Positions 4,582 through 38,782 of a DNA stretch of 64,000 bases are shown piece by piece. The first letter of the stretch is position 1. Each line of letters starts with the position of its first letter. The stretch is from a virus. Location of the stretch: IMG/VR virus record IMGVR_UViG_3300045988_125079, positions 79,838 through 143,837 of that record, one strand, 5' to 3'. The notes beneath the pieces were generated by a model. It was given only the letters and a program-made list of their open reading frames with translations. It was not told the origin of the DNA and did no database searches. The position numbers and the translations under genes are program-made.

Positions 4582-4702
4582 AACGACAACCTCTTTTCTG
4601 AGTGTACAAAATGCGCCACACTCTAAGACGCTACGCATACTGCGTTGGAAAGGGGCCGCTTTGAACGGTGCGACCCCGAAAGGGTATCCGTGAGCTGCGT
4701 GG

Positions 4703-5518: not shown

Positions 5519-6861
5519 AATTCTTTACCTCTCTTTTGCGATTGTGTACAGTGCTATCCGTATGATAACACTTGACGCGGTGCAAACTTGCGCTTGCGCC
5601 GTCTCAAGTGCCCGCCATGCTTTTACACATGACGAACACTGAAAAACTGTTATTTTTGTACGCTAAAGTGGTAGTTTTAAGCCTTGCTTTAGCGTAAAAG
5701 TGACTGCACAAATTGCGCTTGTATTCATGCAAGGCATTCCAGCTTTTGACATTTTGCAAGCTTGCGATTGCACGTCCACCACTAAAGAGTATAGTTAGGA
5801 CTTGTGCAACGGCTACTTTTGTGCGTGCCAGCGCTTTTCCGACACTTATCGGGCGGTATCTGGCACATCATCACAGTGCACCCTATTAAGGCGCACCTAT
5901 AGCTTATTTATCCAGTCGGCTATAGTCGGCAAGGTATATGCTATCCCCACGGAAGGCGTTTGAAATGGGACGCAAGACGAATACACACAAGTTGCAACGT
6001 CCGGCATAGTTCCCGCGCCAAAGCGTGGTCGTTCTACCTGTTTAAATTTTCAAAGTGCAACTGCTCCCCGGAAGCGGGTGCCGTTCCGGTGTTTCCCGTT
6101 CCCTCTGGAGTGACTACAGTATAGCCTAAATAATTTTTTTGTGCAACATGTCTACATGCCAGTTATCAGAACGCCAGTATAAAGAATGGCCGTGCCAGCC
6201 TATATATAAATAGGTATAAATTCCGTTCTGCCAGCAAAGTAAATAGCACCTTTTAACGGTAGGTACGATTTTCCGAAAAGCCGCATGATTCCTAGAGAAA
6301 ATGGACATTCGGCGCGGCACGTGGCGGGGGTGGTTAAAAATCGAGAAATGGGGTGTGCCAGCCCTAAAGGGCTAAGTTGTTTCATCTCCCCATCACCAAA
6401 TTATCTCTTCGGTTCCACCTTTAGTGTGCGTCATTTGTACATTAGCTTCGTGCTTCAATTCCTGTCCACGCATCACAACTTTGCTCATTTTATTCAATTA
6501 ATCCGCTTAACAGCCCGCTTTCCTAAATCGCCACAAACTATATCCGAAGCTCCATCCGGAAATCATCGTGTCATCGTTATATTTTATTATGTATTATTTT
6601 GTATATTTTCTGCCATTTGTTGCCATTTATTGTATTTTATCGCTGTTAAAAACGCATTAAATCGCTATATTTTCATCGTATTTTCGCTATTTTTTCGCCA
6701 TTTATTGAATATTTTATTAAATTTCGCCTCATTCCGGAAATATTCATAATTTTACTTGATATTTTGCATATTTAGGGGTATAATTATAAAAACAACTGTT
6801 ATTATCTACCGTATAGAATGGTAGAGTAACATTTATTATAAGAAAGGACTGAATATCTGTT
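5519..6861. promoter_or_regulatory. 1.3-kb non-coding divergent control region
   Basis: No SD-led ORF. It separates the leftward and rightward gene blocks. It contains repeated GTGCAAC and GTGCCAGC motifs, several hairpins, and an AT-rich tract with CGCCATTTATT-like repeats. Confidence 0.6.
6756..6784 (+). promoter_or_regulatory. sigma70-type promoter for the rightward block
   Basis: TTGATA, 17-nt spacer, TATAAT, about 80 nt upstream of the PIN-PhoH start. Confidence 0.6.
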
Positions 6862-8190
6862 ATGAAATTTTATGACACTTCCGCCCTACTCGATCTCGGT
6901 GCTGCAGCATTCACAAGTCAGTTCTTGATTGCAGACATGACTTTGCACGAGTTAGAAGATATTAAAACAAGTGGTAAAAAGAACGAAGAAACTCGTTAGA
7001 AGGCACGTACCGTAACCCGCCTGCTTGCTGAACACCGCGACGATGGTAGCTTCCGAGTAGTAGCCGTTCCCATGTCTTCCCTATTCTACATCTTGGATGG
7101 CAAGCCAATCAGTGACAATAATGACGCGACGATCATGGCAACCGCCTATTGGTATCTGGATGAGCTGTGTCACAATTTGAATGACGCGATTGAAGCCGGT
7201 CTCACAGACGCACAGCGACAGATCCAAGCTGATATCGATTCTTTTAAATTTGTCACCAGCGACTTAAGTTGTGCCAATATCGCCAGCGGTATTCTTGATC
7301 TACCGACTGAGTTCACTTTTCCTAACGCAACAGCTGCGAAAAACGACTATAAAGGATGGATAGAGGTCGCCCTAGAAGATGGCGGCGAAGAAGCGTTGGC
7401 TATGGCCTACTCTAAAGATGTCGAGCAGAAGAACTTGTTTGATACGCCCACTAACGGTTATGTCTTAATCCCAAATGCAGACGCTGATGGTAACACGGCT
7501 GGACTTCGCTGGGATGGCTCGCGCTATGTACCTATTAAGTATAAAAAAATCAGCAACCGCTTCACTGGGGACATTCGCCCTCTCAACAATCAGCAGAAAC
7601 TCGCCTTTGATATGCTGCAGAACGACAACATCACCGTCAAGATGCTTGCTGGAACATTCGGCAGTGGTAAAACGATGCTCATGGTGTCATCCGCTATTGA
7701 TATGATCGAGAAACATAAAATTGACAAACTGATCTGGATTCGCAACAACATCGAAGTCAAGAACACAAAAGAACTGGGAGCACTTCCCGGCACTCTACTA
7801 GAGAAGCTAGGAGCGGCCTCATTTGCTGGACCTCTTGCAGACCATTTGGGCGGAGAAAGCGGTTTGGAGTATTGGATCAAGAATGGGCAAGTAGAGGTGG
7901 CGCATCTCGGCTTCATTCGTGGGCGCGACTATAAGAATGCTATCTTGCTAGTATCAGAAGCAGAGAACTTGACAAAAGAACACATCCAGTTGCTGCTCGG
8001 CCGTGTAGGTGAAGGATCTATGCTGTGGCTTGACGGCGACTTGAAGCAGACGGATGAGGCGGTATTTGAAAATAACAGTGGTATGCGCAAGGCAATCTCT
8101 GCTTTGACTGGAAATCCGCACTTTGCTTATGTGTACATGCCGAAGACAGAACGCAGCGAGACCGCACAGCTTGCCGATCTACTCGATTGA
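6862..8190 (+). CDS. phoH: PIN-domain/PhoH-like ATPase (442 aa, one in-frame TAG at 6997)
   Basis: The N-terminal MKFYDTSALLDL... PIN-like segment continues in frame through the TAG into track ORF 7072..8190. Walker A GTFGSGKT and the PhoH-type FIRGRD...SEAENLT motif are present. TGA stop. Confidence 0.8.
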
Positions 8191-8203: not shown

Positions 8204-8638
8204 ATGATAGAAGTAAAAATAAGCGGCCTGAAAGTAGCGGACTACTGGTCTCCTACCGACGGATGGAACTATGACGCCATTGATAGTCTTGCAAAAGAAT
8301 TGTACGACCGCTACCGAGAAGCCGAAGCCGAACAGACAGTGGAGTTATTCAAGAACTACATAGAAAAAATGAGTATACTACATGAAATCGATCCATTCTC
8401 TATTGACTATATCCGCGATCAGATTGAGTGGATGATTCGTCCTTTGATGCATCGTGGAATGACGATGAAAAAACGGTTGCAGATAAACGCATTGACCTAT
8501 GAGATCGTAGAAAAGTTGCTTCCCTCTTATCTTGATAATATGGCTATGCTACATCAGTTACAAAAAGAATTAGAAAATGCGGCTTTGCATCGATATTTGA
8601 TTACGCCATTTGGCAAAAGGACAGCTGTATGGAAATAA
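8204..8638 (+). CDS. hypothetical protein (144 aa)
   Basis: ATG at 8204, just after the phoH stop. The earlier track start overlaps phoH. Confidence 0.5.
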   Translation: MIEVKISGLKVADYWSPTDGWNYDAIDSLAKELYDRYREAEAEQTVELFKNYIEKMSILHEIDPFSIDYIRDQIEWMIRPLMHRGMTMKKRLQINALTYEIVEKLLPSYLDNMAMLHQLQKELENAALHRYLITPFGKRTAVWK

Positions 8639-8934
8639 TGAATGAAGCTAATTTGAATATGTTCTGGGCGATTGATGAGTATTTGACTTATAAGATGTCG
8701 CGATACTTTAATGCGTATATTCTTCTGATTGGTTTAAAAGACGATTCTGGTTTCTTTATGAATTTTGAAGGTGGCAAAGGTGGAGTCGAAGGTCATTTAT
8801 ATAAAGAAAAAGGTCCAGCGGTATTCGCATTTATTGGCGACAATTACAAGATTCTACGAAATGACGATGCAAAGTAGATTGTAGATTTAGCATTAAAACT
8901 ATGCAGTCAATACGAAGATCAATTATTTAATTGA
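8629..8934 (+). CDS. hypothetical protein (101 aa, in-frame TAG at 8875)
   Basis: The frame stays open past the TAG for 18 codons and ends at TGA immediately before the AGGAGG SD of the next gene. Confidence 0.55.
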
Positions 8935-12302: not shown

Positions 12303-12315
12303 GGAGTGATATTAT

Positions 12316-14859
12316 TTGTTTAGTCCACCATTATATAGCGTACTAAAATTTAACTTGAATTATATCGTTTCTCATAACTATAATTTTAAACTGACACCAG
12401 AAGAGATGGAGCAGTATAAAGTCTTGCAGGGTGACGATATGCTGTTCAGACAGATTCGGCTCATTTCCGACGACTAGAATAAATTCCAGCGCTTTATTAT
12501 CTTTGTTGATGCAACAGGCGGCCAAAACCACCCTGATGCTATCGATCATTTAGTAGAGCATGGATTCAAATTTAATGGTCAAAAATATCTGTTCTGTGAA
12601 CGTAGTGCAAGTATGGTTCGTCAGAGTATGTTGAGTTTTGTTGAGCGACATATCTACCCTGAACTCGATCGCCGTGTAAGCATGGAACTGGATTTTTCTG
12701 AGACACCAACTGTCCTGAGCAAGTATTATGCATATCGTGGTTTGATGCTGAGCAGCTGCCACTGTCTGGAGAACTGGTATCCCAAAATGATTGTTGTTCC
12801 AGATTATATGACAACGATCAAGAATCAGTGGATCGAGTACCTGGTAGACAAAACTGTGACGTTTAATGACCGCAAAACAGGCAAAGAACGTACCTGGACC
12901 CAGAAAGATATCGCCACAAAAACAGTTGACATTGATATCAACGCCTTTGATGGTGCTGGAATATGCCACCCAAGTATCATGCGCGAATTTGAAAAGCGTA
13001 TCGGTACTTCTGAACGGATGAATAGCTTGATTCTACGTGCTCCATATATCAAGGGTTGCTTACACGAGATTGATTACGAGCGTTTTTTTGAAGAGAACGG
13101 CGTTACAAAAATCAAGGATATCTGGGGTATGGAATATGATGTAACACCTGGCAGTGAACCAATGATTATTATTACTGCTTCAATGTACAAGGGTCTCAAA
13201 TATTTCAAGAAAACTGGTACCTATTCTGACTGGGAGAGATACTGGGAACTCTTCAAGAAGTACGATAACTGCCTTGGTGTAGCCAAATGGAACTTTACGC
13301 TTGAACAAGAACCGCTTTCCACCCGTAGCAACTATCAGGTTATTCAAGACCTACAGCTTGACAATGAGTCTTTTAAGCATCTAGCCGACGACAGCATTAC
13401 CTGGTATCAGAATATTGTCAAAGGCGACCCGATTTATACATACTGCTTCCTTGGTTTACTTGCCGAGAACAATGACCCGATGAATCATTACATGGCTGCT
13501 GCCCTGCGTAATCCAGTGATGGTAAAAGAGCCGGCAATCAAAGATTATATTCACTCGCTGCTTGATAAATATCGCAATGAGATGAAGTGCGGTCGGCTTT
13601 GGATGAATGCTACTTTTAAGTTCTGGGCTCCTGACCTTATCGCACTATTGCAGCATATTGGTGGCCTTCCTGTGACTGGCTGCCTTGAAGACGGTGAGTT
13701 CTACAGTTTCGATCGTCGTGGTGTGATGGAAGGAGACCGCTTAATTGAGCGCAATCCCCATATCTCTGTTGCTGAGCATGTAAAGGCCAAGGCCGTAGAC
13801 AACGAATACACCCATAAATACTGCAGCCATCTTCAGAATGTTGCTATGGTGAATATCAAATCCATCGTGGCTTCCAGACTTAATGGTTCAGATTTTGACG
13901 GCGACCTGGTTTTAATCATCGACAATCCGCTGATGATGAGTGGTGTTCCTGATAATATCCCCATTACACTTGATGTTGAAGATAAGATCACTGCGTTAGC
14001 AGAATGTGATATTGTGAAGAACAAAGTTGCTTGCACCATTCGTGGATTGAAAAGTTCTATTGGTGAGATCTCAAACTACGCAACTGCATACCATAATAAG
14101 GTTCCGACCATGGAAAAGACCAAAAAGCTCTATCACGATAATATTTCGCTTTTGAGTATCTGCAACGGAAAAGCTATCGATTATGCCAAAACCGGTGTTC
14201 TGTATCCGATCCCGCGTAATGTAGCAGCTTATGGTCGTCCTCTACCCTACTTTATGAAGTATGCAGGTCCTTACTACGCACGTTTACATAATCTCAGCAA
14301 GGCACATAGCAACATGAACCTGCTTTGCATGAGTCTGGAGCGTTGGGAGCGCGGTGTACGGTGGCGCAAAGAGCCGGCAGGCAGCTTTGATTGGCATATC
14401 ATGTACGACCCAGAGGTCTCCTATGACCAGGCAGTCTTTGATGAGATCGAAGCCATTTTCTTGGATTTCAACAAATGCCGCAAGGAACAGCTTGAGTTCG
14501 AAAAGAAATGCCGCAACTGGCAATTATATCATAAGGACATCGAGTCGCGTATTACCAAAGAAGAAGCCAAGACATATGAAACGAACTGGCAGGCGATCTA
14601 CAATGTCTACCGTAACAAGTGCAAGCTGGTGTGTCCTGATGTGAGAGAGCTGGCGAATATTCTTGTAGTGCTTTGCTATGAGAAGTATCCAAATAAATTT
14701 AAGAAGTTCTTGTGGCACATGGCCGGCGCTGGTGTGGTCGAAAATATCAAGCCGGTTCTTGTTCAGTTACCAGTTCACGACCCGAACGGTGAGTATGAAT
14801 ATCTTGGCCAGCGATATAGTTTGGCTGAACCGAAAACTTATGAAGCGAGGGTGAAATAA
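12316..14859 (+). CDS. YonO/RdRP-like single-subunit two-barrel RNA polymerase (847 aa, in-frame TAG at 12475)
   Basis: TTG start 9 nt after GAGGAG, in frame through the TAG with track ORF 12613..14859. GSDFDGD (13891-13905) is the DxDGD metal-binding signature. ERNPHISVAEHV and ERSASMVRQS resemble cellular-RdRP/YonO family blocks. Confidence 0.7.
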
Positions 14860-14860
14860 T

Positions 14861-15160
14861 ATGGATAATTTGAAAGATCCGGTTACAATGGATAAACCCG
14901 AGCAAATGAATACACTTCATTGTCTATTTTGCTGCTCTACAAAAGTATATCCTGTTGTTGGAAAAGATATAAAATGTAAAAACAAATATCCGCCATATCA
15001 AGAAATTAAAATTCCAAGTATTGATGGACTATATTGCCCTGATTGTAAAACAGCTTATGCTATAGACAAAAATCTTGACGATGTAATTCAGCAGTGTAGA
15101 AATATTTCGGGTGATTTAAATTTTTATCCATCAGAAATAAAGGAGAAAATTGATGTTTAA
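14861..15160 (+). CDS. zinc-ribbon protein (99 aa)
   Basis: SD GAGGGTG. CxxC...CPDC cysteine pairs. Confidence 0.6.
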   Translation: MDNLKDPVTMDKPEQMNTLHCLFCCSTKVYPVVGKDIKCKNKYPPYQEIKIPSIDGLYCPDCKTAYAIDKNLDDVIQQCRNISGDLNFYPSEIKEKIDV

Positions 15161-15413
15161 TCTATTCAAAAAGAAGAAACCACAACAGGAAGAAGCTCCA
15201 CAGCAGATGGAATGCCCCAAGTGTGGCGGAATCATGACACTGACAAATGGACTAACATATACATTCCACTGTCGGGGGCAAGAACTCGAAGCCTCAAATG
15301 TTACCGCCATGAAATGCGCGAATTGCGGCGAAATGATGTTTAGCTGGGACGAGGCTCAACGTATTCAAAAATTCGCTCATGAATCTGTGGGCTGGGAGGA
15401 TAAAACAGAATGA
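15150..15413 (+). CDS. YgiT/MqsA-type zinc-finger protein (87 aa)
   Basis: AAAGGAGA SD. MECPKCGG...KCANCGE pattern. Confidence 0.6.
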   Translation: MMFNLFKKKKPQQEEAPQQMECPKCGGIMTLTNGLTYTFHCRGQELEASNVTAMKCANCGEMMFSWDEAQRIQKFAHESVGWEDKTE

Positions 15414-15862: not shown

Positions 15863-16649
15863 TGAAAATATGTTGCTTGATCATTGGCAGGACTATCACG
15901 AGTCAAATCTGATGTTGCGAAACCTGCTAAAGCGAACCTCCCTCTCCCCTATTGAATGCGCCACGTTTTATTATGAGCGGATGAAAAATCCTGAGTCTGT
16001 CAGTTATGATCGCAGCCACTTGATTCAGATGTTCAGCAGAGGTCGTAAAAATAACGCGCCTATATTTGACGTACATCAAGTTGTACTTTATCAGAAAGAT
16101 CTGGACTATATTACAGAGGCGCGCCGAAAATATCATATCAACTACGCACAATTACGTGTTCTGTTTGGGGTGATATTCTTCTGCCGACTATACGGAAGTG
16201 ATACCTTTGCTTTGGACACCGAGTTTAAGATGAAACGTTTTGGTGGCTGTTTTGAAGAGCAGACAGAGATCATGTATTGCGCTGGGAAGAACTAGGATGA
16301 CGGCTATAATACAGTGCGGGGTATGAAGGAAATTTCTGACGACTATCATCTGCTGAACAGGACAGGTACTGACGACATTGGATGCTTATACCAGTACCAG
16401 AATTTCGCTCTTGATAAGAATGACACGATTGCGTACACGTTTAATGTGACGCTTGAAAACAATCGACTGAATCTAAGTGCCATAGTGCGAGAGTTGTTTG
16501 ACCCGAAGGAATGTTATTGCATCGTGTGTGGCGAACAGTATCACTCAGAAAAGCCAAATGCCAGCAGATATTGCAAAGGGTGTGCGGCAAAAAAAGAACA
16601 AGCACGTCTGGCGAAAATCAAGCGAAAACGCAGCAAATGCACGAAATGA
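15837..16649 (+). CDS. hypothetical protein with C-terminal zinc ribbon (270 aa, in-frame TAG at 16293)
   Basis: Track ORFs 15837..16295 and 16314..16649 share one frame and are joined by the TAG. AGGAGG SD. CIVCGE...CKGC motif. Confidence 0.65.
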
Positions 16650-16725
16650 ACTTTAGATTCTTAATATATGAAAGGGTGTTATATATTTCCCTTTCGATTA
16701 TAAATTACAAAGGAGATTTATTATA

Positions 16726-16923
16726 ATGGTTGAAATTACTAAAAACGAAGCTACATATCTGCGGAAGGTTATTCCCAATGTCCATATTACCCGTACCACA
16801 CACAAGTGGTATGCTGAGGAGATTAAGTCTGTTCTGACTCAGCTTCCTGGCAATGTAGAAGCTGAAGCCGCTCTGCGTGAACTGAACCGTACTCAAAGAA
16901 CCATTTCGAACTTCGAAATTTAA
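16726..16923 (+). CDS. hypothetical protein (65 aa)
   Basis: AAAGGAGA SD and a TAA stop. Confidence 0.55.
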   Translation: MVEITKNEATYLRKVIPNVHITRTTHKWYAEEIKSVLTQLPGNVEAEAALRELNRTQRTISNFEI

Positions 16924-16934
16924 CGAGGTGCTGA

Positions 16935-18134
16935 ATGGACGAATTTAAAAAGAATGCTTTTCGTAAGATGGATGATGAATCTTTCGATGAATATATGATG
17001 CGGATTGGTAGCGCGTGCCATGAGCACAATTTGACATAGGATGAAGCTGCCGAGATTCTGAATGATGCAACAGGTTCTAACTATGGTGAATGTCGCTATC
17101 GTAAGACCTATAAAGCATGGAAGGCTGGCTACGACTATGCGCTTGAGCATGAATGCGGAGATGCCGTGGCTAATGATATCCAACGTCTGAAGATTGAACA
17201 GGTAAAAGCCCGCGATGAACGTGCAGCAGCTAACAGAGTGTACCGCAATATGGCCAGAACGGAGTCTATTAAAGATCTGATTGCTGCTGCGGTAGTTCCT
17301 TATGACAAGAATAATTTTCTAAATGTCGTACAATATGAATGCAGTGATCATGATGTGATTGTGTGTCTGTCTGACTTGCACACTGGATCTGGTATTGATA
17401 CTGCATGGAATAAGTTCGATAAAGAAATTCTTAAGTCGCGACTTGAATCCTACATTGCACAGATTTATAACATCGTAGCTCGTCATGCCGCCGAAAAGAT
17501 TCATGTACTATTGCTTGGTGATCTGATCAATGGCCATATCCATATGAATACCCGTATACAAAACAACGAGAACAGTATTGAACAAGTCATGATTGCAGCG
17601 GAGCTTGTGAGTAATTTTGTGGCTGAATTATATAAAGTGTGCAGTCATATCGATGTGTATGCGGTGAGTGGCAATCATTCGCGTGTATTTCCAAATAAGG
17701 ATGAACAGGTTGCAGGAGATGAACTCGAAGCGCTGATTCCGTTCTATATGAAGGCACGGCTACAGAATCTGGCTGGCATTGAAGTAAAAACAGAGAAGCT
17801 CGATCCTACGTTTGGCGGATTTAAGGCTCGTAATAGTTTAGTGATGTATGCACATGGAGATAAAGACTCCCCTGCTAACGTCGTTGAACACTTGACCATG
17901 ATGGTAAAACAGCCGATTGATCTGGTCTTCCTCGGACATCGCCATACAAACGGAATGACAACCGTGCACGGTACAAAGGTTATTGAAAGTGGCTGCGTAT
18001 GTGGCACTGATAGTTTCGCGGTTGGGCTTCGTAAAAATGATGTTCCGCAGCAGGCCGTTGCCGTGATTGATGATGGCGGTCTGGAGTGTTTGTATGATGT
18101 CAAGCTGGAGAAGCCAGCAAAGATAGTAATTTAA
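16935..18134 (+). CDS. metallophosphoesterase (calcineurin-like) with N-terminal HTH-like segment (399 aa, in-frame TAG at 17037)
   Basis: ATG at 16935 is in frame through the TAG with track ORF 17166..18134. Phosphoesterase motifs present: LSDLHTG, GDLINGH, GNHSR, GHRHT. Confidence 0.7.
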
Positions 18135-18156
18135 CATTGTAATTCAATAGATTTAG

Positions 18157-18190
18157 ACGTTCTGGGCTTAACCGCTCAGGGCGTTTTTTT
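18157..18190 (+). terminator. rho-independent terminator
   Basis: 8-bp stem ACGUUCUG/CAGGGCGU followed by a run of seven T. Confidence 0.6.
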
Positions 18191-18388: not shown

Positions 18389-18424
18389 ATAAACAGCTTG
18401 TTTGAAAAAGCAAGCTTTATATGT

Positions 18425-18512
18425 CGCAGGTGACAGCGCCGGTGTGCTGGCCAGCCTCATAAGCTGAGACAAGGAGAAATCCAGATGCGTTCGACTCGCA
18501 TACCTGTACCCA
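18425..18512 (+). tRNA. tRNA-like gene, anticodon loop CUCAUAA (CAU), long variable arm, encoded CCA
   Basis: Hand-folded cloverleaf. Acceptor stem is CGCAGGU/ACCUGUA with a C1-A72 mismatch. D stem is CAGC/GCUG with GG in the loop. Anticodon stem is CAGC/GCUG. The variable arm is 17 nt (GGA-GAAA-UCC). T arm is AUGCG-UUCGACU-CGCAU. Discriminator is C, followed by CCA. Non-canonical G8 and G14. Confidence 0.45.
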
Positions 18513-18810: not shown

Positions 18811-19789
18811 AAAGAAACCGCCACGCATTAAAGTGCCAGCCTCATGGAGTGGTGGCAAATGTATGTGCTGCGGAAAAATCTATGATGTGCGTAAGGGAAA
18901 TTTCTCGAAAACACAGAGTCAATGGTTTATAGGCAATGATGGATATCTGCCGTGGTGCAACGAGTGCCGCGAACGCATGTTTGAATTCTACGCCAAGAAA
19001 TACAATGACGAGGATGAAGCGATCGACCGTCTGGCTATGATGTTTGATACCTATGTTGATGATAAGCTGTTGGAGGCTTCTGAGCATTCTACCACATCCG
19101 CTTTGAAGATCAACACTTACATGGGACGGCTCAATATGCGTCAGCACGCTGGTAAATCCTATGACGATGTAATCGATCAGAAGAAAAAGGACGCACTTGC
19201 TGCCGGCGATACCAAGGGAACAAAAGTCACTCAGAGAATGATCAAGAATTAGGGGCGTGGCTTGGATGATCAAGATTATCTATTCCTTGAAGACCACTAC
19301 CAGAATCTTATTACACGCCATGAATGCAAGACAGCCGCACAGGAGATTCTGTTTAAGCGCATTGCAAAGGCAGAGCTTAACTGCGAAAAGGCCGATGCGA
19401 CTGGTGACACAAAGAAAATCAAGGAAGCCAATGATAACCTACAGAATCTAATGGGTTCAGCTCAGATCAAGCCGAACCAGACGAATGATAATGCACTGGC
19501 TGAGACGAATACTTTTGGCACGCTAATTCAGAAATAGGAAGAGGAAGAGCCGATTCCAGAACCGTCGCCCGAGTGGCAAGACGTTGATAATATTGGTAAG
19601 TATTTTAGAGTATGGGTGCTGGGCACTTTGCTTAAGATGTTCAACTTAAAGAATCCATATCAAGACGAATTTGATGAAGAGTTTGAACGATATACTGCTC
19701 ATAAACCAGAAACAAATGAGGATGATACCGCAGATACCAGCCTCCGCGAAACTATTTTTGGTATTGGCGAAGGCGGTGGTTCCGCATGA
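18791..19789 (+). CDS. terS: putative small terminase subunit (332 aa, in-frame TAGs at 19250 and 19535)
   Basis: Three same-frame pieces are joined by TAG. It lies immediately upstream of terL and overlaps it (ATGA). N-terminal zinc ribbon CMCCG...CNEC. Confidence 0.5.
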
Positions 19790-20276
19790 GTAAAGAGAAA
19801 TTAACAGATAAGGAAGTAGCGAATACAAAATCAGAAAAGATAATGAACGCAGTAGCTTTAAGAGCGTCTTTTTATCGAGCGAATCCTCAGCGGTTTGCAA
19901 AAGATTATTTAAACCTGACATTGAAACCATTCCAAGAGCTGCTATTGTTTTTGATGGTGAGATGCACAGGTTTCTGCTAGGTCGCCGCACGCGGGTTGGG
20001 CAAGTCCTTTTTGACAGCAGTTTTTTGCGTTATCACATGTATTTTGTGGCCTGGTTCCAAAGTCTGTATTGCGTGTAAAGTGCGAAGTCAGTCCATTAGT
20101 ATTTTGGACGAAAAAATAATGAAAGAAATCTATCCGAACAGCCCACTATTAAGAGCTGAGATAAAAAAAGTAGATATCAATAATCAAAAAGCAGAAATAA
20201 TATTTAGAAACGGTAGCTACATCAAAGTCGTTACTGCAACAGACTCATCACGAGGTTCGCGTGCGACTTTATTGGT
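19786..20276 (+). CDS. terL: terminase large subunit, exon 1 (in-frame TAG at 19978)
   Basis: Walker A AARGLGKSF. Ends ...SRGSRATLLV just before the expected Walker B DE. The downstream frame degenerates into intron sequence. Confidence 0.75.
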
Positions 20277-21327
20277 AAACAAACATGCCAGATTTTATAG
20301 AAACATAAAACCTAGACTGGGCAAAATCGGTAAATGCTAAAAATTTATTTGAAGGAAGGAATAATTATAGCTAAGGTAAATCCGCGAAAGAGAACGAAAG
20401 AACAATTCCAATATCTACTAGATGAGAAATTTGGACCAATTTATGAAGTCACTGGAGAGTACGTTGATAGCCAGACAAAAGTCGGGTTACTTTGCAAGGT
20501 GTGTGGAAATATATTTTATAAAGTACCTAATAAAATGACTTCCTGTGGCGAGGGCTGCTATTTTTGTAGTAAGAAAAATTGGCACAAAACAACCGAAAGC
20601 TTTCAAAAAGAGTTAGACAATAGATTCCCAAACACATACGAAGTTTTGACTGAATATGTAAAAGCACGGAAACCTCTTTTGGTGAAACGGATTCCATGTG
20701 GACATATTTATAAAGTATCACCTGATAATTTGTTGCGTGGAAAAGGTTGCGCTTTATGTACAATACGTCAATCTCATTATATGGATATCGTTGAAGACTA
20801 TTTTAAGAAACACAATATTATTTTTGAAAAAGAAAAAAGATTTGACGATTGCCGTAATATTCGTGTTTTACCTTTCGATTATTATATTCCAGATAAGAAT
20901 TTATGTATCGAGGTCGATGGTGAATTTCATTATCCACATGTCACATACGAAAAAAGTGATTAGACACTCAAAGGTGCTTCCCAGTAGGAGGCAGTCCATG
21001 AGCGTGATTTAATTAAAACCGCATACTGTGAACAAAATGGAATTGATTTACTACGACTTCCATATTTTGAAGAGAAAAATTTTGAAAAAATTCTTGATGA
21101 TAAATTCAATGCTAATACCGAGATAAATGAAGAAATTTCGCAAGGTTCTTCATCATTGTAACGCATAGGAGATGAATAAATATAATTCTCCCACGAGTGT
21201 CCAGCACAACAGTATATAGGACTGTTCGCAGAAATGCGCCTAACGTTAAACGAGGGTGAAAATATATGCTGACCTTACAGGAAACTGTAAGAATCGTTGG
21301 ATAAAAAGCCGACGAGTTAACATATTG
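20277..21327 (+). mobile_element. group I intron in terL (~1051 nt)
   Basis: Removing it joins ATLLV to CDEYRLLSKDVID, restoring the Walker B motif in one frame (491+1267 nt = 586 codons). P1 is UUGGU(20272-20276)/GCCAG(20287-20291) with a U-G wobble at the splice site. P10 is ACAU(20283-20286)/GUGU(21328-21331). The last intron nt, 21327, is G. A GAAA-capped hairpin sits at 21274-21291. Confidence 0.7.
20334..21161 (+). CDS. intron-encoded nuclease: tandem zinc-ribbon repeats plus PD-(D/E)XK (Vsr/DUF559-like) C-terminal domain (in-frame TAGs at 20961 and 20985)
   Basis: Two CxxC...GxGCxxC repeats, then FDYYIP...CIEVDGEFHY...ERD..K...GIDLLRLPY. The start codon is uncertain. Confidence 0.55.
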
Positions 21328-22594
21328 GTGTGATGAGTACCGTTTACTTTCTAAAGATGTTATTGATTTGATCTTGAAGAAGTTCCTGAATATTGTTCGT
21401 CATCCTGGATATTTGGATAAGCCACAATATACACATCTTGCAGAGCGAAACAAAGAATTCTACCTAAGTTCTGCTTGGTTCCAAAACCATTGGAGCTATG
21501 AAAAATGTCAGGACTATTTCGTAAATATGATCGACTTTAATAAAAAATATTTCTGCGTATCTTTCCCGTATCAAATGTCAATTAAGAGCGGTTTGCTGTT
21601 GAAAGAAGCTGTAGAGGACGAAATGAGTGAATCCAGTTTTTCTGATTTGACATTTGCAATGGAGAATGAATGTAAATGGCTTGGTGCTACTGAGGGTGGG
21701 CTATTCCAATTTGATGACATCAACAAAACACGCGTCATTGAAAAGGCGTTTTACGCACCGAATCTTTTACTTAATCAAGCTGCTATGGACGTACCAAAGA
21801 GGAAAAATGGCGAAGTACGAATTCTTACCGCAGATATTGCATTGATGAGCAGCCGCAAAAACGACAACGACGCAACTAGTATCTTTTTGAACTGTATGCT
21901 GCCAAATAAATCAGGGCGCTATACGAGTAATTTCGTTTACTCCGAGAATATAGAAGGTATGAGCATTCAAGACCAAGCGCTAAAACTGCGCCGCTATTTT
22001 GAATATTTTAACTGTGATTATCTTGGTATCGATGCCCGTTCAGTTGGTATTCCATTGATTGACCTACTCATGCGCGATATTTATGATCCTGAAATTGGTG
22101 AAACCTATCCAGCAATCAGTTGCTGCAACAATTCAGAAATCGCCGACCGTTGTTCAGATAAGGCTGCAAGGAAGGTCATTTGGGCTATTATGGGCAGTTC
22201 TCAGTTCAACAGCGATGTAGCCATTGGTTTGCGTAGCGGTTTTCAGCAGGGGCGCATTCACCTTCTGCAAAGTGAATATAGCTGCGAAGATCAGCTACGC
22301 AAGTTGTATAAGGGATACGATAAAATGTCGCCTAGCGAACGAGCTGCTCTACAAATGCCGTATATCAATACAGGTCTTGCAATAAACGAGCTCGTTAATT
22401 TGGGTTACGAAACAGTAAATAATGTAATCAAGGTCAAGGAGAAATCTGGGTGTCGTAAAGACCGTTACTCTTCCCTGTCCTACAATTATTATATCGCACA
22501 GCAAGTTGAGCGAAGTATGGAGAAACGGCACAATAAACCGAAGTTGCTCGATTTTAACTTCCGTGCGCCAGTATTGAAGAAGGGAGGGCTGTAA
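21328..22594 (+). CDS. terL: terminase large subunit, exon 2
   Basis: Begins (V)CDEYRLL and has no SD or start of its own. The nuclease-half region precedes the portal gene. Confidence 0.75.
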
Positions 22595-33407: not shown

Positions 33408-36400
33408 ATGGCGCGTGAACCAGAGTTAAGCATTAAAGTCAAAGTAGATCCACAAATTAACCCATCAAGCTTAAAAACGAATATTGAGCGTCAGGTAAAA
33501 CAAAGTGGTGAAAAGCCAAAGGTTGAGATTGATCCTAATGTTGATGGTATTAAGGGTAAAATTGAAGAAAAGCTTAAGAATGTCAAAGCGACTGCAACTG
33601 TAACGCCGATTGTTGACACTGAAAAAATTAAAACAGACATTCAGCGACAGATTAACAGCATTAGCGATATGCCAAAGGTTACAGTTGGTGTCGATGTTAA
33701 TAATTTTTCAAATGAGTTAAGTAAGCAGCTAAAGACACAACTGAAAGAAGTCAATCAGCAACTAAGTTATTATTTGAAGAATCTGACAAGAAATACAAGT
33801 AACCTTGGATCTTTTGCAGAAAATATTTTTAGCATTAAAGGAGTCGCGCCTGCAGCACAAAAGGCTGTGAAAAATGCCGTTGATGAGGCTACTCGAGCAG
33901 CCAAAACATCAAAAAAAGAATTTAATATTAACGATTTGTTTAATTTCAAAATTTCAGACAACACAAAAAAGAAAAGCTTATCTGAAATTGAAGACTTGAC
34001 AATGAACGTTACAGAAGGACTGGACGAATTAAGAAAGAGCGTAGAATCCTGGGATCAAAAAAAAATATCAACAAAAGAGTTCAATGATGGTCTTACAAAA
34101 TTAAAATCTAATGCTTTAGAATTAAAAAGTATAATTTCGTCTTTTAACACCGCGCTTAATTCAGATAATTCAGGCGTAAAAACATTTTTGGATTTGCTAA
34201 AACAAAATGGCTTTGATTTAGCAACGAATACTGGTTCTTTTCAGAACCTCGAATCTCTTCTTGAATTATTAACAAACTTCGATGAGAATTTCAAAACTCC
34301 AACTGAAGCATTTAAATTTGTAGATTCTTTAGACGAAGAAGCGAAACACTATGACAAGGATTTACGAAGGCTATGTCAAAATGCTATTTCCGAATTCGGA
34401 GATATCCAGGATAAATCTGCTGAAACAATCAATAATATCAAAGCAATAAATATTGAAACAAAAAAAGCGCAGCAAGAATTAAAAGTGAATAAAGCAGATG
34501 ATAAATCTGGTTATCTTGATGCTTCTACGATTGAAGCTTATGGCAATGCAATTGACAGAGTTCTTGGCAATATTGCTCAAAAGCAAGAAGACATCAATGC
34601 AAAACGACAAGAAGCCATCAATCTTGAAAAAAATATCCTCTCTAATACTGTCTCAACTCGCGAAGGTCTTAGTCATGAACTTGAAGAATACACTAAAGTT
34701 CTAAATAAATTTGATACTGAAAAAATCACTAAACTTGCAGCGAGTCTAAAAGATACAAGAGTAGAGGCCGAACAATCTGTCCCAAAAGAATTAGTCCAGC
34801 CCGTGGCGCAGCCTTCCAAAAAAGAACCCCCCAAATTTGCCGGAGGTGGCATTCCAGATTTTAATGAGGGATTAAAGAATAACAAAAAAACTGAAGAAAC
34901 CGTTATTCCCATTAAGGGTAAAGTAACAATCACAGATGCTGATATCACAGTAGATGTAAAAAATCCTGTCAAGATTCCTAGTGTTGCAGTTATTGATTCA
35001 AGCGCCGCACAGATTGGTAATACAGATGATTTAAAGGTAAGCGCAGATGCTCTCGCTTCGGCTAATAAGAGCTTGAACGGTATTGCTAGTAAGACGGATA
35101 AATACGTTTCTAATATTTCTGCTCTTGGTCCTGCATTTCAGTATGTAGCGCAGGAAGTCGATAATCTCAGCCATTCTTTAGAGAACCAGATTATTGACTT
35201 CGATCGAATTTCTGAGCAGACAAACGCTTATATTGGCAAAGCTGGTTCTATTCTAATTAATACTTCCAATGTTGCGATTACTGGTGAACCGACAACTATT
35301 GATGGTAAAGTTATTCTTACCGCTAACGACATTGTACCACCCGAAGAACCTGTTGATATCAAGGGACATGTTGAGCTAAAGGTTTCCGATATCACTCCCC
35401 CGTCTGAACCTGTTGAGCTTCAGGGCAAGATTGCAAAGACGACTATGGAGTCTACGGCAAAAGGTAAAAAGAAAAAGGGACAGGATGTTGAAAAACCTGA
35501 TGTTGTCGAATTAGCTGGTCATGTTAAGCTTGAGGACAAAGATATTGAGCGACCTGATCCCGTCAAGCTCAATGGTGCCGTTAAAATCAAAGACAGTGAC
35601 ATCAAGGTTGGCGATATTGAAATTTCTAAAAAGAAGTTTGATATTAATGGCAATTTAATTCTGAAGAATGCTGAGATTGTCGATGCGGTTAAAGAAGCGG
35701 CTGGTGAAGCAGCAAAAGCCAAAAAGAAAAACAAAACTACAGAGAATAGTGGTGGAGGATCAGAAGAAAAATCACTTGATTTTGATCGTAAAGCGAAAGA
35801 GGCTCATCTTGGCTGGCTTATTTCCAATATTGGAGAAAATAGAACATATTTACAGAGTGCAATTTCAAATAAAGATTCAAACAAGAGATCTTGGTATGCA
35901 GGAAAAATTGCAGACTATGAAAAGGATTTTGAAGAAACAACAAGAGAACTTATCGAAAATCTTACGGAAGAAGAGCAGGATTGGATCGAGTCCTTAAAGG
36001 GTAAAAAAATAAACCTCAATGATCCAAAACAAATCGATGAACTCATGGCAGATAAAACAATCTTGTGGCCATGGGAAGAAAGCGGCTCTTATTTAAACGG
36101 TACATTAAAAGCTGCCAATATGGCAGGATTTTATAATGTTTCTGAAACTGATAAAGCTAAAAAGAGAAATAGCTATGAAAAAGAATATGTCGAGTTAATA
36201 AAACAAAAACCGGCATTGATTAAAGCTGCCGCAGAAGCAAGAAAACAATATGGCGAAGACAGTGACGCCTATAAGGATGCTGTAAGGGCAAAAAAAGAAA
36301 ATGAAGAAGCTTTACGTGCTATTAATCCTGATAGACAAAAATCTAATGTTCCAAGAGGAATTGTTGATGGTGGCTATTCAAACTCCCCCGCTGTCCAAAG

Positions 36401-38495
36401 CACATTGGCTGACATTCATAAACAGGTGCAAAAACGGCGTTCAGAGCTACTGTTGCAAAAAACAAAAGATTCTAAAGATGTTAATGATAAACAAACTCAA
36501 CAAGCAAAAAAGATTTTATCTGATGCATTTATTGAACAGGTAAGAGCTTATGCTGATGGTTTAAAAGAATCTTCAAAGTACAACGATGATGACGTTTCTG
36601 AATCTGCAAAAACTGCCCGCAAACAGATGCAGGATGCTTTTGATTCTGCCAATGATAAATTTTTAGAATTGCTTGATGTTTTTTCTGGAGACGAAATCGA
36701 TCAGCTTACATTAAAAGCAAAGAAGGAACTTGATTCTGCTAATAGAATTGTAGATCGCCGAATTGCAAATCTCACTGATAACAATAATAAACAAAATTTA
36801 TCTGTTGAAGATCGTCAGAAAGCATTAGATCAAATTCGAGCTGCGATTGAAAAGAATTCAAACAATATGGACCGCGCCAGGAAGAATGGTTCAGCCGGTA
36901 GTGATCTCTATAGTCAATTCAATGCCAAACAGACCATGTACAAAGCACTAGAAGGTGCAGTATCTTCTGGATCTGGCATTAAAGATTGGGCGAAGACATA
37001 TTTTCCTGCTAAAGTTGACGATATCAATAATGTTACCGATGCTCTGAGGGAAATGCGCGGCGAGTTAACAGAAGACCAAATCAAATTAGCACAAGTATCG
37101 GCTGATAAGTCAATTGAACGTTCTACTAACAAAGCAGCTACTGCGGTTGCAAATTTAAAATCTCAAATTCATGACTATCTTGAAACGAACAAGAAAATTC
37201 AAAATAGTGAGCTGGCTCAGCCTTTTAGAGATCTAATGAATGCATTAAATTCTAAAAATGCTCCAGAAAAAATCGGAGAATTACAGAAACAATTTGCTGA
37301 GCTTCGTGCGAGATCTAAAGAACTTGGACTTGAAACCGAAAGTTTGATTGATAAGTTCGAGAAACTCTTCGGAACGCACTTGAGTACAATGATCACCATG
37401 GCAGCGTTACACAAGATGCAAGACGCCCTACGCTTGGTGTATCAGAACGTGGTCGAGATTGATACGGCAGTAACCGAGCTGAGAAAAGTTAGTGAATATA
37501 CAGGCAAATCTCTCGAAGAATATATGGGACGTGCGGCTGAACAGGCTCAAAAGCTAGGTGTCTCTATCAGTGATTATGTCAATTCTACAGCCGATTAGAA
37601 GCGGCTTGGTTATTCTGATGAAGACGCCGAGAATTTAGCAACCTACTCTACCTTGCTCAAAAACGTTGGCGATAATATCGATGACGTTAACACCTCGTCT
37701 TCGTATTTGATTTCTACTCTGCAAGGTTTTGGGCTGTTAGCCGATCAAGCAGAAGATGTCGTTAATAAAATTGACGCTGTGGCAAACACGCAGCCTGTTA
37801 CTGCAAAAGACCTTGGCGAAATCTTGACTCGCAGTTCTGCTGCTATGTCGGCCGCTAATAATACGCTGGAAGAAACTATCGCGCTTGGTACTGCTGCAAA
37901 TGCAGTTATCCAAGATGCAGATACGGTCGGTACAACTTTAAAAAGTTTATCAATGTATCTCCGTGCTGCTAAAAGTGACGCAGAGAATGCAGGTATTGAA
38001 GTTGACGGTATGGCCAATTCTGTGTCTGAGCTCCGCAGTGAACTGAAATCTCTGACTGGCGTTGACATCATGCTGGATAGCAAAAATTTCAAGAGTACAT
38101 ATCAAATCATGAAAGAGCTGTCTCAAGTATGGAGTGGTCTGTCCGATGTAACGCAAGCAAATGTCACTGAAATGATTGGCGGGAAGAGAAACGCAAATGC
38201 AGTTAGTGCTATTCTAAACAATTTTGACGTTGCTGAATCTGCTATGGAATCCGCTGCTAACAGCGCCAACGTGGCATGGGAAGAGAACGAGAAGTATCTC
38301 GACAGTATCCAAGGCCGCCTTGCGCAACTCAATGCAAGCTTCCAAGTCCTTTCTCAAGATGTCCTCTCTTCCGGTCTCGTGAAGAGTGGAGTATCTTTCC
38401 TCACATCAATTGTTAAACTTCTTGATAAAATCATTAATCTCACTGGTGCCCTTCCTGCTGGACTGGGTATCGCAGCATTTGCAACTCAGCTGGGT
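33408..38495 (+). CDS. tape measure protein, exon 1 (1696 codons, in-frame TAG at 37596)
   Basis: AAGGAGGA SD. Long coiled-coil protein with the conserved tape-measure core (...KLGVSISDYVNSTAD-TAG-KRLGYSDEDAE...). Coding quality collapses after ...AFATQLG at 38495. Confidence 0.75.
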
Positions 38496-38782
38496 GAACC
38501 CAAAATGACGGGTTTCATGATTGTGCCCAGCAATACTCCGGGTGGTGACACGGAACAAGTGCTCCGCAGGTATTATATTATATATTCGCGAAGCATGAGG
38601 GAGTATTTAGTAAAACCGACGAACATGGTGACATAGCCACGGCGAGTTTGGGTAATTCTCGTCCGGGAACCGAAAGGAATCCGCAGGCAAGCTCTGTATA
38701 CGCCTACATTATTATAATAGGCGCTGCTAGAGACGCTTCAGAGAGCATAATGTCGGGGTGGATCTTTTATGTGTTGCTTCCA

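What the first reader, a model, noticed from the sequence alone, without database searches (positions are those of the whole stretch)
12316..14859. Phage-encoded YonO/cellular-RdRP-like single-subunit RNA polymerase
The 847-aa ORF carries GSDFDGDLVLIID. This is the DxDGD catalytic loop of double-psi beta-barrel polymerases: NADFDGD in beta-prime, DxDGD in eukaryotic RdRPs and in SPbeta YonO. It also carries RNPHISxxxH and SASMVRQS blocks reminiscent of the RdRP/YonO family.

A phage-owned polymerase could explain how late transcription passes the many intrinsic terminators seen in the structural operon, including those inside the tape-measure intron. The gene itself contains a sense TAG, so it cannot be made in full before suppression is active.
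Basis: partly seen in the sequence, partly recalled or inferred. Interest (0 to 1): 0.65.

Follow-up and report, generated by a model that had tools for sequence, protein, structure and literature searches.

The report
YonO-type phage RNA polymerase gene
This gene encodes a single-chain RNA polymerase of the known YonO family, most likely the late-gene transcriptase of an SPbeta-like gut prophage; the unusual part is that its reading frame contains a TAG "stop" that this phage lineage appears to read as tryptophan.

Summary
ORF 12316-14859 (+) has 847 codons, one in-frame TAG at codon 54, and all three quoted motifs.

The interpretation also holds.
- Pfam RdRP matches at E 9.5e-17.
- SPbeta yonO is hit directly, and a profile comparison gives 99.9% probability over 680 columns.
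- A confident AlphaFold model matches QDE-1 and RDR2 along its whole length.
- The downstream genes follow the order of the SPbeta late operon.

The family is large and already described, so the polymerase is a new member of a known kind.

The TAG is a sense codon. It is conserved in about 25 relatives under strong purifying selection on both sides. Other subclades carry TAG at other codons of the same gene, and never TAA or TGA. Two of those codons are Trp in every aligned TAG-free relative.

Across neighbouring genes, 17 of 31 TAG-containing columns are Trp in TAG-free relatives and only 2 are Gln. TAG is therefore most likely read as Trp, not as Gln under code 15.

Related genomes carry a tRNA(CUA) about 51 kb away, and it was found only in genomes that use sense TAG.

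A single-copy 20-nt motif at 16658-16677 is a candidate late promoter.

The parts
12303..12306 (+). Ribosome-binding site (GGAG), 9 nt upstream of the TTG start
   Evidence: Read directly from the sequence. Homologues begin MFSPPLY or MFAPPLY at the equivalent position.
12316..14859 (+). YonO-type single-subunit two-barrel RNA polymerase gene: 847 codons plus TAA
12475..12477 (+). In-frame TAG at codon 54, read as a sense codon and most likely as Trp. In the model it lies in a loop between a helix and a strand.
   Evidence: The same TAG is present in L001, L014 and 22 IMG/VR loci. Sister genomes L028 and L032 have TAC at this codon. Codons 1-53 show only synonymous differences against L001.
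12604..12627 (+). SASMVRQS block. S97, S99, M100 and R102 are invariant. It aligns to SSAGQIRT of YonO.
13036..13056 (+). RAPYIKG block. R241, P243, K246 and G247 are invariant. It aligns to RLPWVKG of YonO. I infer it to be the basic motif of the first barrel.
   Evidence: The assignment to barrel 1 is an inference.
13750..13779 (+). RNPHISVAEH block. R479-H482, E487 and H488 are invariant. It aligns to RSPHLFREH of YonO.
13891..13905 (+). Catalytic DFDGD loop (D526, D528, D530). It aligns to DNDGD of YonO.
   Evidence: Forrest et al. 2017 (PMC5467207) showed that the 3D>3N mutant of YonO is inactive.
6756..6784 (+). Best sigma-70-like promoter (TTGATA-17-TATAAT, 11 of 12) ahead of the rightward operon that contains the polymerase gene. 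Candidate only.
   Evidence: The total number of such sites is not above shuffled expectation.
16649..16677 (+). Conserved single-copy non-coding motif AACTTTAGATTCTTAATATATGAAAGGGT, upstream of the yonK-position gene at 16726. It is a candidate late promoter for this polymerase.
   Evidence: It occurs once in each of 63 of 83 polymerase loci and nowhere in 5.7 Mb of other related loci.
18155..18186 (+). Strongest intrinsic-terminator-like hairpin after the polymerase gene: 13-bp stem followed by a T-run. It follows the YonJ-like exonuclease gene.

Best explanation
The gene encodes a YonO-type, single-polypeptide, two-barrel DNA-dependent RNA polymerase of an SPbeta-like temperate phage. The phage is integrated in an Oscillospiraceae genome.

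Inferred mechanism:
1. Host RNA polymerase transcribes the rightward operon that starts near 6.8 kb and includes the polymerase gene.
2. The mRNA is translated from TTG 12316 through the TAG at codon 54. A phage-encoded tRNA(CUA), found in related genomes about 51 kb away, reads that codon, most likely as Trp.
3. The full-length enzyme uses the D526/D528/D530 triad to transcribe the roughly 45-kb late structural and lysis operon as a long unit.
4. Late transcription probably starts near the conserved motif at 16649-16677, upstream of the yonK/yonJ-like genes.

Shown here: family membership, fold, synteny, that the TAG is a sense codon, and the Trp signal.

Inferred only: DNA template specificity, the late-gene role, the promoter, and the identity and timing of the suppressor in this particular genome.
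For: Family and fold:
- Pfam RdRP matches at E 9.5e-17, above the curated cut-off. phrog_8308 matches at 3e-92.
- SPBc2 yonO is hit at E 3e-19 with 23.6% identity over 82% of the query. hhalign of the family profile against YonO gives probability 99.9%, E 2e-31, over 680 columns, and all four motif blocks are aligned.
- The AlphaFold2 model of the 99%-identical P0001 has pLDDT 91.8 and pTM 0.87.
- Foldseek against the PDB puts RDR2 and QDE-1 on top, at E 7e-21 to 1e-18 and TM 0.50-0.57 over 800-900 columns. The best viral matches are annotated RdRP-like phage proteins.

Context:
- SPbeta has the order yonO, yonK, yonJ, yonG, yonF, yonE, yonD, yonC, yonB.
- The genes downstream of the polymerase follow the same order in the window and its relatives. 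YonJ_N, YonG_N, YonD_N and YonB Pfam families are on record in the relatives. YonG-like and terminase proteins hit SPbeta at 1e-40 and 3e-39.

Function by homology: YonO is a strict DNA-dependent RNA polymerase. It is essential and transcribes 37 late genes as one operon starting upstream of yonK (PMC5467207).

The TAG is a sense codon:
- 99 synonymous against 6 non-synonymous codon differences relative to L001. Codons 1-53 show 4 synonymous and 0 non-synonymous differences.
- Only TAG ever interrupts the gene in 80 relatives. It occurs at codons 20, 54, 114, 306, 325, 447 and 638.
- PHROG matches run across TAGs in late genes.

Suppressor: a tRNA(CUA) is present in 17 of 26 TAG-using genomes and in 0 of 8 TAG-free genomes.
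Against: - No biochemical data exist for this protein. Template specificity cannot be read from sequence, and databases name the family 'RNA-dependent RNA polymerase'.
- The window and the 9.8 kb to its left contain no tRNA(CUA). The suppressor is inferred from related genomes.
- SPbeta has a terminator directly after yonO. Here none appears before 18155, so operon boundaries differ.
- The candidate promoter motif has no counterpart in SPbeta.
- It is also absent from relatives whose polymerase is 56% identical or less.
Confidence: 0.85

Rival explanations
1. The protein is an RNA-dependent RNA polymerase, as the Pfam and NCBI names say. It would amplify or copy RNA, for example in small-RNA or anti-defence functions, rather than transcribe phage DNA.
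For: The best structural and profile matches are eukaryotic RNA-dependent enzymes: QDE-1, RDR2 and Pfam RdRP. GenBank relatives are annotated 'RNA-dependent RNA polymerase'.
Against: YonO is the only characterised bacterial or phage member, and it strongly prefers DNA templates (PMC5467207). The gene sits immediately upstream of a syntenic late operon, as yonO does. The RdRP names are transferred from the Pfam family name and do not come from experiments.
Confidence: 0.05
2. The TAG is a true nonsense mutation, so the gene is a pseudogene in a decaying prophage.
For: Under the standard code the frame is interrupted at codon 54. No suppressor tRNA lies in the window.
Against: The TAG is retained in about 25 genomes, some as divergent as 92% nucleotide identity, while substitutions on both sides are almost all synonymous. 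No TAA or TGA ever interrupts the gene in 80 relatives. Dozens of other essential genes carry in-frame TAGs at conserved Trp positions. TAG-using genomes carry a tRNA(CUA).
Confidence: 0.02
3. Translation stops at the TAG. The working enzyme is a shorter protein re-initiated downstream at ATG 12613 (codon 100, 748 aa).
For: ATG 12613 is the first start codon after the TAG, and standard gene callers report that ORF.
Against: Such a product would lack invariant residues D40, R45, R48, G83, S97 and S99, and the ERSAS part of the ERSASM block. Homologues from standard-code bacterial genomes are colinear from residue 1. Codons 1-53 are under purifying selection.
Confidence: 0.03
4. The TAG is read as glutamine (standard code 15), as public gene callers assumed for this lineage, and not as tryptophan.
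For: Code 15 is the usual phage amber reassignment (Borges et al. preprint; PMC9523058). P0001 was deposited with Q at this site. Two of 31 TAG-containing columns are Gln-dominated. At codon 54 itself the TAG-free relatives have D, Y, T, S or N, which does not discriminate.
Against: In 17 of 31 TAG-containing columns the TAG-free relatives have Trp, mostly in 100% of sequences. These include polymerase residues 306 (83 of 83) and 325 (78 of 78). Close relatives swap TAG with TGG at 8 sites and with CAG at 1 site. The tRNA(CUA) shares G1.U72, G73 and the CUCNAAA anticodon loop with a phage tRNA-Trp(CCA). About 19% of phage tRNA-Sup(CUA) genes in the theta-ribozyme-associated set of PMC10879173 were predicted to have Trp isotype.
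Confidence: 0.1

Closest known systems
YonO of Bacillus subtilis prophage SPbeta (Forrest et al. 2017, PMC5467207)
   Same: Single chain of about 840 aa. Homologous over 680 columns. It shares the DxDGD triad and the R-x-P-x-x-K-G, R-x-PH and IGExSN blocks. It occupies the same position, upstream of a syntenic yonK-to-yonB late operon in a large temperate siphophage.
   Different: Only about 24% identity. The host is a gut Oscillospiraceae, not Bacillus. The gene carries a sense TAG. There is no terminator or HU-like yonN directly downstream; instead there are small zinc-ribbon genes. The candidate promoter motif is not found in SPbeta.
Eukaryotic cellular RNA-dependent RNA polymerases (Neurospora QDE-1, plant RDR2; Pfam PF05183)
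   Same: They are the best solved-structure matches, at E about 1e-20 and TM 0.50-0.57 over the whole chain. Same Pfam family, same catalytic loop.
   Different: 13-15% identity. Those enzymes copy RNA (QDE-1 also copies ssDNA) in silencing pathways. This one is phage-borne and, by homology to YonO, is expected to transcribe dsDNA.
Annotated relatives in cultured phages: Thomasclavelia phage TR-TP1/TP2, Enterocloster phages PMBT24 and CB457/473, Clostridium phages c-st and D-1873
   Same: 40.8% identity over 99% of the query for TR-TP1, with the same downstream order: DNA-binding protein, exonuclease, terminase, portal.
   Different: The TR-TP1 polymerase gene has no in-frame stop. The genetic code of these phages was not examined further.
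Virion-packaged RNA polymerase gp66 of crAss-like phage phi14:2 (PDB 6VR4)
   Same: Two-barrel catalytic core; weak structural match.
   Different: E 4e-4 and TM 0.21. gp66 is a protein of more than 2,100 aa that is injected with the DNA for early transcription. This gene is not a member of that family.
Stop-codon-recoded gut phages and prophages (Borges et al. 2021 preprint; Peters et al. 2022, PMC9523058)
   Same: In-frame TAG concentrated in the lytic arm of a prophage whose flanking host genes (7 examined) contain no in-frame TAG. The suppressor tRNA is phage-encoded. Closely related standard-code genomes avoid TAG stops altogether.
   Different: Those studies report only TAG-to-Gln and TGA-to-Trp. 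Here the alignment evidence points to TAG-to-Trp, as in NCBI table 32, which PMC10879173 calls 'rarely reported'. The phage's own late RNA polymerase is among the recoded genes.

Membership tests
Two-barrel RNA polymerase / Pfam RdRP (PF05183) | Profile match above the curated threshold | tested here: met
   61.3 bits against a cut-off of 23.8, E 9.5e-17, covering profile positions 56-558 of 582.
Two-barrel RNA polymerase / Pfam RdRP (PF05183) | Catalytic D-x-D-G-D metal-binding loop | tested here: met
   DFDGD at residues 526-530. D526, D528, G529 and D530 are invariant in 64 sequences. The loop aligns to DNDGD of YonO.
Two-barrel RNA polymerase / Pfam RdRP (PF05183) | Fold with two double-psi beta-barrels, as in QDE-1 | tested here: met
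   The model has pLDDT 91.8. It aligns along its whole length with QDE-1 and RDR2 structures (E 7e-21, TM up to 0.57, 800-900 columns). I did not count the barrels on coordinates, so this evidence is indirect.
YonO-like phage single-subunit RNA polymerase | Detectable homology to SPbeta YonO over most of the chain | tested here: met
   tblastn E 3e-19 over 82% of the query. hhalign probability 99.9%, E 2e-31, 680 columns.
YonO-like phage single-subunit RNA polymerase | Encoded just upstream of the structural (late) operon of an SPbeta-like phage | tested here: met
   Gene order matches yonO-yonK-yonJ-yonG-yonF-yonE-yonD-yonC-yonB.
YonO-like phage single-subunit RNA polymerase | DNA-dependent RNA synthesis and requirement for late-gene transcription | not testable with these tools
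   Needs biochemistry and genetics. Known only for YonO itself (PMC5467207).
crAss-like virion RNA polymerase (gp66 type) | Very large virion-packaged protein (more than 2,000 aa) with the two-barrel core embedded | tested here: not met
   The protein has 847 aa. The Foldseek match to 6VR4 is only E 4e-4 with TM 0.21.
Code-15 (TAG=Gln) recoded phage | In-frame TAG in conserved, selected genes | tested here: met
Code-15 (TAG=Gln) recoded phage | TAG positions align with Gln in standard-code homologues | tested here: not met
   Trp is the majority residue in 17 of 31 columns and Gln in 2. TAG swaps with TGG at 8 sites and with CAG at 1 site.
Code-15 (TAG=Gln) recoded phage | Phage-encoded tRNA with CUA anticodon | tested here: inconclusive
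   None lies in the window or its fetched flanks. It is present in 9 of 16 genomes of the same clade, for example L323:19223-19299, and is tied to TAG use at 17 of 26 against 0 of 8.

The most novel reading that the evidence does not exclude
In this lineage of SPbeta-like Oscillospiraceae prophages, TAG has been reassigned to tryptophan by a phage tRNA-Trp-like tRNA(CUA). This resembles table 32 and is not the code-15 Gln reassignment assumed by gene callers.

The TAG inside the YonO-type polymerase gene would then act as a checkpoint. The polymerase, and therefore all late transcription, can appear only after the oppositely oriented left arm of the genome has produced the suppressor. That would chain a translational code switch to a transcriptional switch.
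Probability: 0.3. Interest if true: 0.75.

Novelty: new member of a known kind. Interest (0 to 1): 0.45.

Why it matters
The polymerase itself adds little. YonO homologues number in the thousands, and several cultured gut phages already carry annotated copies. Three by-products are more useful.

1. The promoter of YonO-type polymerases has been unknown since 2017. The 20-nt motif found here occurs once per genome, at the position equivalent to the YonO start site. It is conserved across polymerases that have diverged to 64% identity. It is a concrete, testable candidate.

2. The lineage offers alignment evidence for a TAG-to-Trp reassignment in phages, where only TAG-to-Gln has been validated. 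Public protein sets translated with code 15 therefore probably carry Gln where Trp belongs.

3. The phage's own late transcriptase is among the recoded genes. That bears on the proposal that recoding times lytic gene expression.

Tried and rejected
- A sequence search of the PDB found nothing with the single protein. With the family profile it gave only marginal QDE-1 hits at E 0.4. Structure comparison was needed.
- BFVD holds no YonO entry, so a direct YonO fold comparison was not possible.
I modelled the 99%-identical P0001 instead; it lacks residues 1-30.
- Suppressor tRNA searches were negative in several places:
  - the window (ARAGORN; Rfam at the gathering and E-value thresholds);
  - 58 loci within 10 kb of the polymerase gene;
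  - the first phage tRNA cluster;
  - 5.1 Mb of loci.
  It was found only after walking about 50 kb leftward.
- I considered site-specific A-to-I mRNA editing (UAG to UIG, read as Trp). I set it aside because the 26 TAG sites share no sequence context beyond a mild purine preference at +1, and a tRNA(CUA) exists.
- I considered a host-wide TAG reassignment. I set it aside because 7 flanking host genes are intact under the standard code. That is a small sample.
- The 65-aa gene at the yonK position shows no BLASTP similarity to YonK.
- The Pfam copy available for scanning lacks the Yon* families, so synteny rests on precomputed hits in relatives and on tblastn to SPbeta.
- A search for the promoter motif in SPbeta gave only chance-level matches.
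- Overall sequence similarity of the tRNA(CUA) to other tRNAs does not settle its isotype.
- Sigma-70 promoter and terminator counts are at or near shuffled expectation.
Full report
**Observation.** Window 12316-14859 (+) translates to 847 codons followed by TAA. There is one internal stop, TAG at 12475-12477, which is codon 54. The start is TTG, 9 nt after a GGAG that follows the stop of the preceding gene. The quoted blocks are all present: SASMVRQS (97-104), ERNPHISVAEH (478-488) and GSDFDGDLVLIID (524-536). After the TAG, the first possible start codon is ATG 12613, codon 100.

**Identity by sequence.**
- Pfam RdRP (PF05183) matches the part after the TAG at E 9.5e-17, 61.3 bits against a cut-off of 23.8.
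- PHROGs gives phrog_8308, a family of unknown function, at 3e-92.
- The word-indexed protein search found 407 relatives below 1e-5. Most are 820-880 aa long and colinear with the whole read-through protein, including the 53 residues before the TAG. Two come from cultured Clostridia genomes, where NCBI calls them 'RNA dependent RNA polymerase'.
- The exhaustive search of 50%-identity representatives found 1,539 clusters below 1e-3 and 230 below 1e-30.
- In the phage collection the protein hits Thomasclavelia phage TR-TP1 at 40.8% identity. It also hits Enterocloster and Clostridium phages, and directly hits yonO of SPbeta/SPBc2 at E 3e-19 with 23.6% identity over 82%.
- A profile of 64 family members aligns to YonO with probability 99.9%, E 2e-31, over 680 columns. 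The aligned pairs are DFDGD with DNDGD, RAPYIKG with RLPWVKG, RNPHI with RSPHL, and IGEISN with IGEYSN.
- Invariant residues in the family include D526, D528, G529, D530, R241, P243, K246, G247 and R479-H482.

**Identity by structure.** I therefore modelled P0001, a 99%-identical relative that covers residues 31-847. The model has pLDDT 91.8 and pTM 0.87.
- Foldseek against the PDB returns plant RDR2 and fungal QDE-1 first, at E 7e-21 to 1e-18 and TM 0.50-0.57 over 800-900 columns.
- crAss-like gp66 follows at E 4e-4. Beta-prime and Rpb1 chains appear only at marginal scores.
- Against viral models the best hits are phage proteins annotated as RdRP.
- No solved YonO structure turned up.

It did not occur. 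I did not inspect coordinates, so the two-barrel statement rests on the whole-chain match to QDE-1 and RDR2.

**Context.** The phage is SPbeta-like.
- In SPbeta the gene order is yonO, yonN, yonK, yonJ, yonG, yonF, yonE, yonD, yonC, yonB.
- In the window the polymerase is followed by three small genes, two of them zinc-ribbon proteins, and then a 270-aa gene.
- Next come a 65-aa gene at the yonK position and a metallophosphatase exonuclease like YonJ.
- After these come a YonG-like gene, the terminase, a 506-aa gene at the YonE position, and genes at the YonD, YonC and YonB positions.
- Relatives carry the YonJ_N, YonG_N, YonD_N and YonB Pfam families.
- The right end of the window abuts bacterial genes in two long contigs, so the element is an integrated prophage.
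- The closest genome record is an uncultured Oscillospiraceae MAG.
- IMG/VR relatives are 75-150 kb long.

**The TAG is a sense codon.** Five lines of evidence support this.
1. The same TAG is present in L001 (92% nucleotide identity), in L014 (97%), and in the 22 IMG/VR loci whose polymerase is at least 98.7% identical. The sister genomes L028 and L032 have TAC there.
2. Against L001 the gene has 108 nucleotide differences. They fall in 99 codons with synonymous changes and 6 with non-synonymous changes. In codons 1-53 all 4 are synonymous.
3. D40, R45 and R48, upstream of the TAG, are invariant in the family.
4. In other subclades the same gene is interrupted at codons 20, 114, 306, 325, 447 or 638. 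The interrupting codon is always TAG and never TAA or TGA.
5. PHROG profile matches run straight across TAGs in at least six late genes.

**Which amino acid.**
- I tallied the genes between 6 and 25 kb across 84 related loci. Thirty-one alignment columns hold a TAG in some genome.
- In 17 of them the TAG-free genomes have Trp, usually in 100% of sequences. These include polymerase residues 306 (83 of 83) and 325 (78 of 78).
- Gln dominates in 2 columns, Tyr in 2, and Phe, His and Arg in 1 each. Seven columns are mixed.
- SPbeta itself has Trp at one of these sites.
- Between near-identical genomes, TAG alternates with TGG at eight sites, with CAG once and with TAT once.
- Trp makes up about 1% of codons, so this is a very strong signal that TAG is read as Trp.
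- At codon 54 of the polymerase the TAG-free relatives have D, Y, T, S or N. The model places the residue in a loop. The site is therefore permissive and does not itself identify the residue.
- Public gene callers translated this lineage with code 15, giving Gln. That is probably wrong.
- Borges et al. report only TAG-to-Gln and TGA-to-Trp in phages. Kienbeck et al. predicted a Trp isotype for 19% of 180 phage tRNA-Sup examples associated with theta ribozymes, nearly all with a CUA anticodon. They called this 'rarely reported code 32'.

**Suppressor.**
- The window contains no tRNA. It has only a weak tRNA-like element with a CAU loop at 18426-18507.
- Walking leftward through related genomes first found a phage tRNA cluster. 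It holds tRNA-Pro, a Met or Ile tRNA, three tRNA-Leu, tRNA-Gly and, in some genomes, a genuine tmRNA. It holds no tRNA with a CUA anticodon.
- A second cluster lies about 51 kb from the polymerase gene and on the opposite strand. It carries a tRNA(CUA) in 29 of 69 loci. Nine of the 16 genomes of the window's own clade have it.
- Genomes with two or more sense TAGs near the polymerase have it in 17 of 26 cases. Genomes with one or none have it in 0 of 8 cases.
- The tRNA shares G1.U72, G73 and a CUCNAAA anticodon loop with a phage tRNA-Trp(CCA) in a relative. Overall similarity does not settle the isotype.
- TAG-free relatives also never use TAG as a stop: 0 of 50 genes.
- Seven host genes beside the prophage are intact under the standard code.

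**What this means for expression.** However, the polymerase is not uniquely gated. The first gene of the same rightward operon, the PhoH-like gene at 6862-8190, has a TAG at codon 46, and gene 8629-8934 has one at codon 83. Relatives also have TAGs in other pre-polymerase genes. Sense TAGs are rare in the leftward arm. The pattern fits the model of a lytic arm recoded and a lysogeny or early arm in the standard code. Whether the polymerase TAG is an adaptive checkpoint or a neutral result of the reassignment remains open.

**Terminators and promoter.**
- Terminator-like sites number 13 against 11.9 expected in 5.5-22 kb, 23 against 15.5 ± 3.6 in 22-42 kb, and 13 against 12.7 in 42-62 kb. About seven are strong sense-strand hairpins between late genes. 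The excess is therefore modest.
- The SPbeta record also lists stem-loops inside its late operon, and YonO transcribes that operon as one unit with little pausing.
- The YonO promoter is unknown. Upstream of the yonK-position gene, the motif TTCTTAATATATGAAAGGGT (16658-16677) is conserved. It occurs exactly once in 63 of 83 polymerase loci, and it is identical in 56 of them, although polymerases in that set have diverged to 64% identity.
- It is absent from relatives with 56% identity or less, from L002, and from two loci that are cut short. It is also absent from 5.7 Mb of other loci from the same phages. It is a candidate late promoter, by inference only.
- The best sigma-70-like site lies at 6756-6784, ahead of the rightward operon.

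**Verdict.** The gene is a genuine YonO-type polymerase and a new member of a known, large family. The recoding to Trp and the promoter candidate are the parts worth following up.

**Limits.**
- There are no experimental data.
- Residues 1-30 were not modelled.
- The suppressor was not seen in this exact genome.
- The Trp assignment is by alignment, not by proteomics.

Noticed in passing
Window-wide, e.g. 16293-16295, 17037-17039, 19250-19252, 19535-19537, 52647-52649, 52984-52986, 57046-57048: In-frame TAG codons sit at positions where TAG-free relatives have Trp (17 of 31 columns, against 2 for Gln). In near-identical genomes they alternate with TGG. The lineage seems to read TAG as Trp (table-32-like), not as Gln under code 15 as public gene calls assume.
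   Followed up: yes
L323:19223-19299 (IMG/VR contig 3300029790_000127), and 28 other loci among L312-L380: A phage-encoded tRNA with a CUA anticodon lies in a second tRNA cluster about 51 kb left of the polymerase gene, on the opposite strand. It was found only in genomes that use sense TAG (17 of 26 against 0 of 8). It shares G1.U72, G73 and the anticodon-loop context with a phage tRNA-Trp(CCA).
   Followed up: yes
window 16649-16677: The single-copy non-coding motif AACTTTAGATTCTTAATATATGAAAGGGT lies upstream of the yonK-position gene. It is identical in 56 related genomes and absent elsewhere in 5.7 Mb of related DNA. It is a candidate promoter for the phage polymerase.
   Followed up: partly
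window 18426-18507 (+): A tRNA-like element with a CUCAUAA loop (CAU anticodon) follows two terminator-like hairpins (18155-18186, 18395-18416). It scores 31 bits against the Rfam tRNA-Sec model, below the gathering score. Relatives L060 and L061 have a tRNA-Met(CAU) call, also a few kb downstream of the polymerase gene.
   Followed up: partly
window 14861-15160 and 15150-15413 (+): Two small Cys-rich genes lie directly after the polymerase gene. The 87-aa product has weak MqsA, TFIIB and RPB9-type zinc-ribbon Pfam hits (best E 1.4e-05); the 99-aa product, with two CxxC pairs, matched no family. They are conserved in some relatives (L001, L005) but not in L002. They could be polymerase cofactors.
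   Followed up: no
window 19786-22594 (+): The terminase large-subunit gene appears split. The N-terminal part (19786-20340) and the downstream ORF taken to be its C-terminal part (21527-22594) flank an insert of about 1.2 kb. The insert holds a 275-aa ORF (20334-21161) with a weak DUF723 and a faint DUF4379 hit in L001. Relative L005 has one uninterrupted 585-aa gene. This suggests an intron or homing-endonuclease insertion.
   Followed up: partly
window 33408-38717 (+): The tape-measure-like ORF continues through a TAG at codon 1397, where relatives have Phe. It ends in sequence that does not look protein-like. Thomasclavelia phage TR-TP1 has HNH endonuclease genes inserted in its tape-measure gene, so an intron here is plausible.
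   Followed up: no
L012:19742-20396 (about 8.8-9.5 kb left of window position 1), and L012:12039-12119: The phage carries a genuine tmRNA (Rfam 92 bits, tag ANNNSYRCAA) next to tRNA-Pro(UGG). Both are conserved in divergent relatives. It also carries a twister-P5 ribozyme.
   Followed up: partly
window 4639-4691 (-): A RAGATH-5 ribozyme-like match scores 47.4 bits, just under the gathering score of 50.
   Followed up: no
window 9410, 9751, 10466, 11221 (+): The gene junction TGTAGGAGTTTRYTATGA (RBS plus an overlapping ATGA stop and start) is repeated. It explains why several small upstream ORFs end in C-[KR]-S-L-L. It is a translational-coupling cassette between paralogous small genes.
   Followed up: yes
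window 62259-63302 (-); L008 and L009: An AcrVA2-like (anti-CRISPR family) gene lies near the right end. In two long contigs, bacterial genes (GDPD, a MalT-like regulator) begin about 0.7 kb beyond 63668, which marks the prophage boundary.
   Followed up: partly
L005 and L002 (relatives with 70% and 66% identical polymerase): These genomes have no sense TAG, and none of their 50 called genes ends in TAG. TAG seems to be avoided altogether in the standard-code sister lineages.
   Followed up: partly
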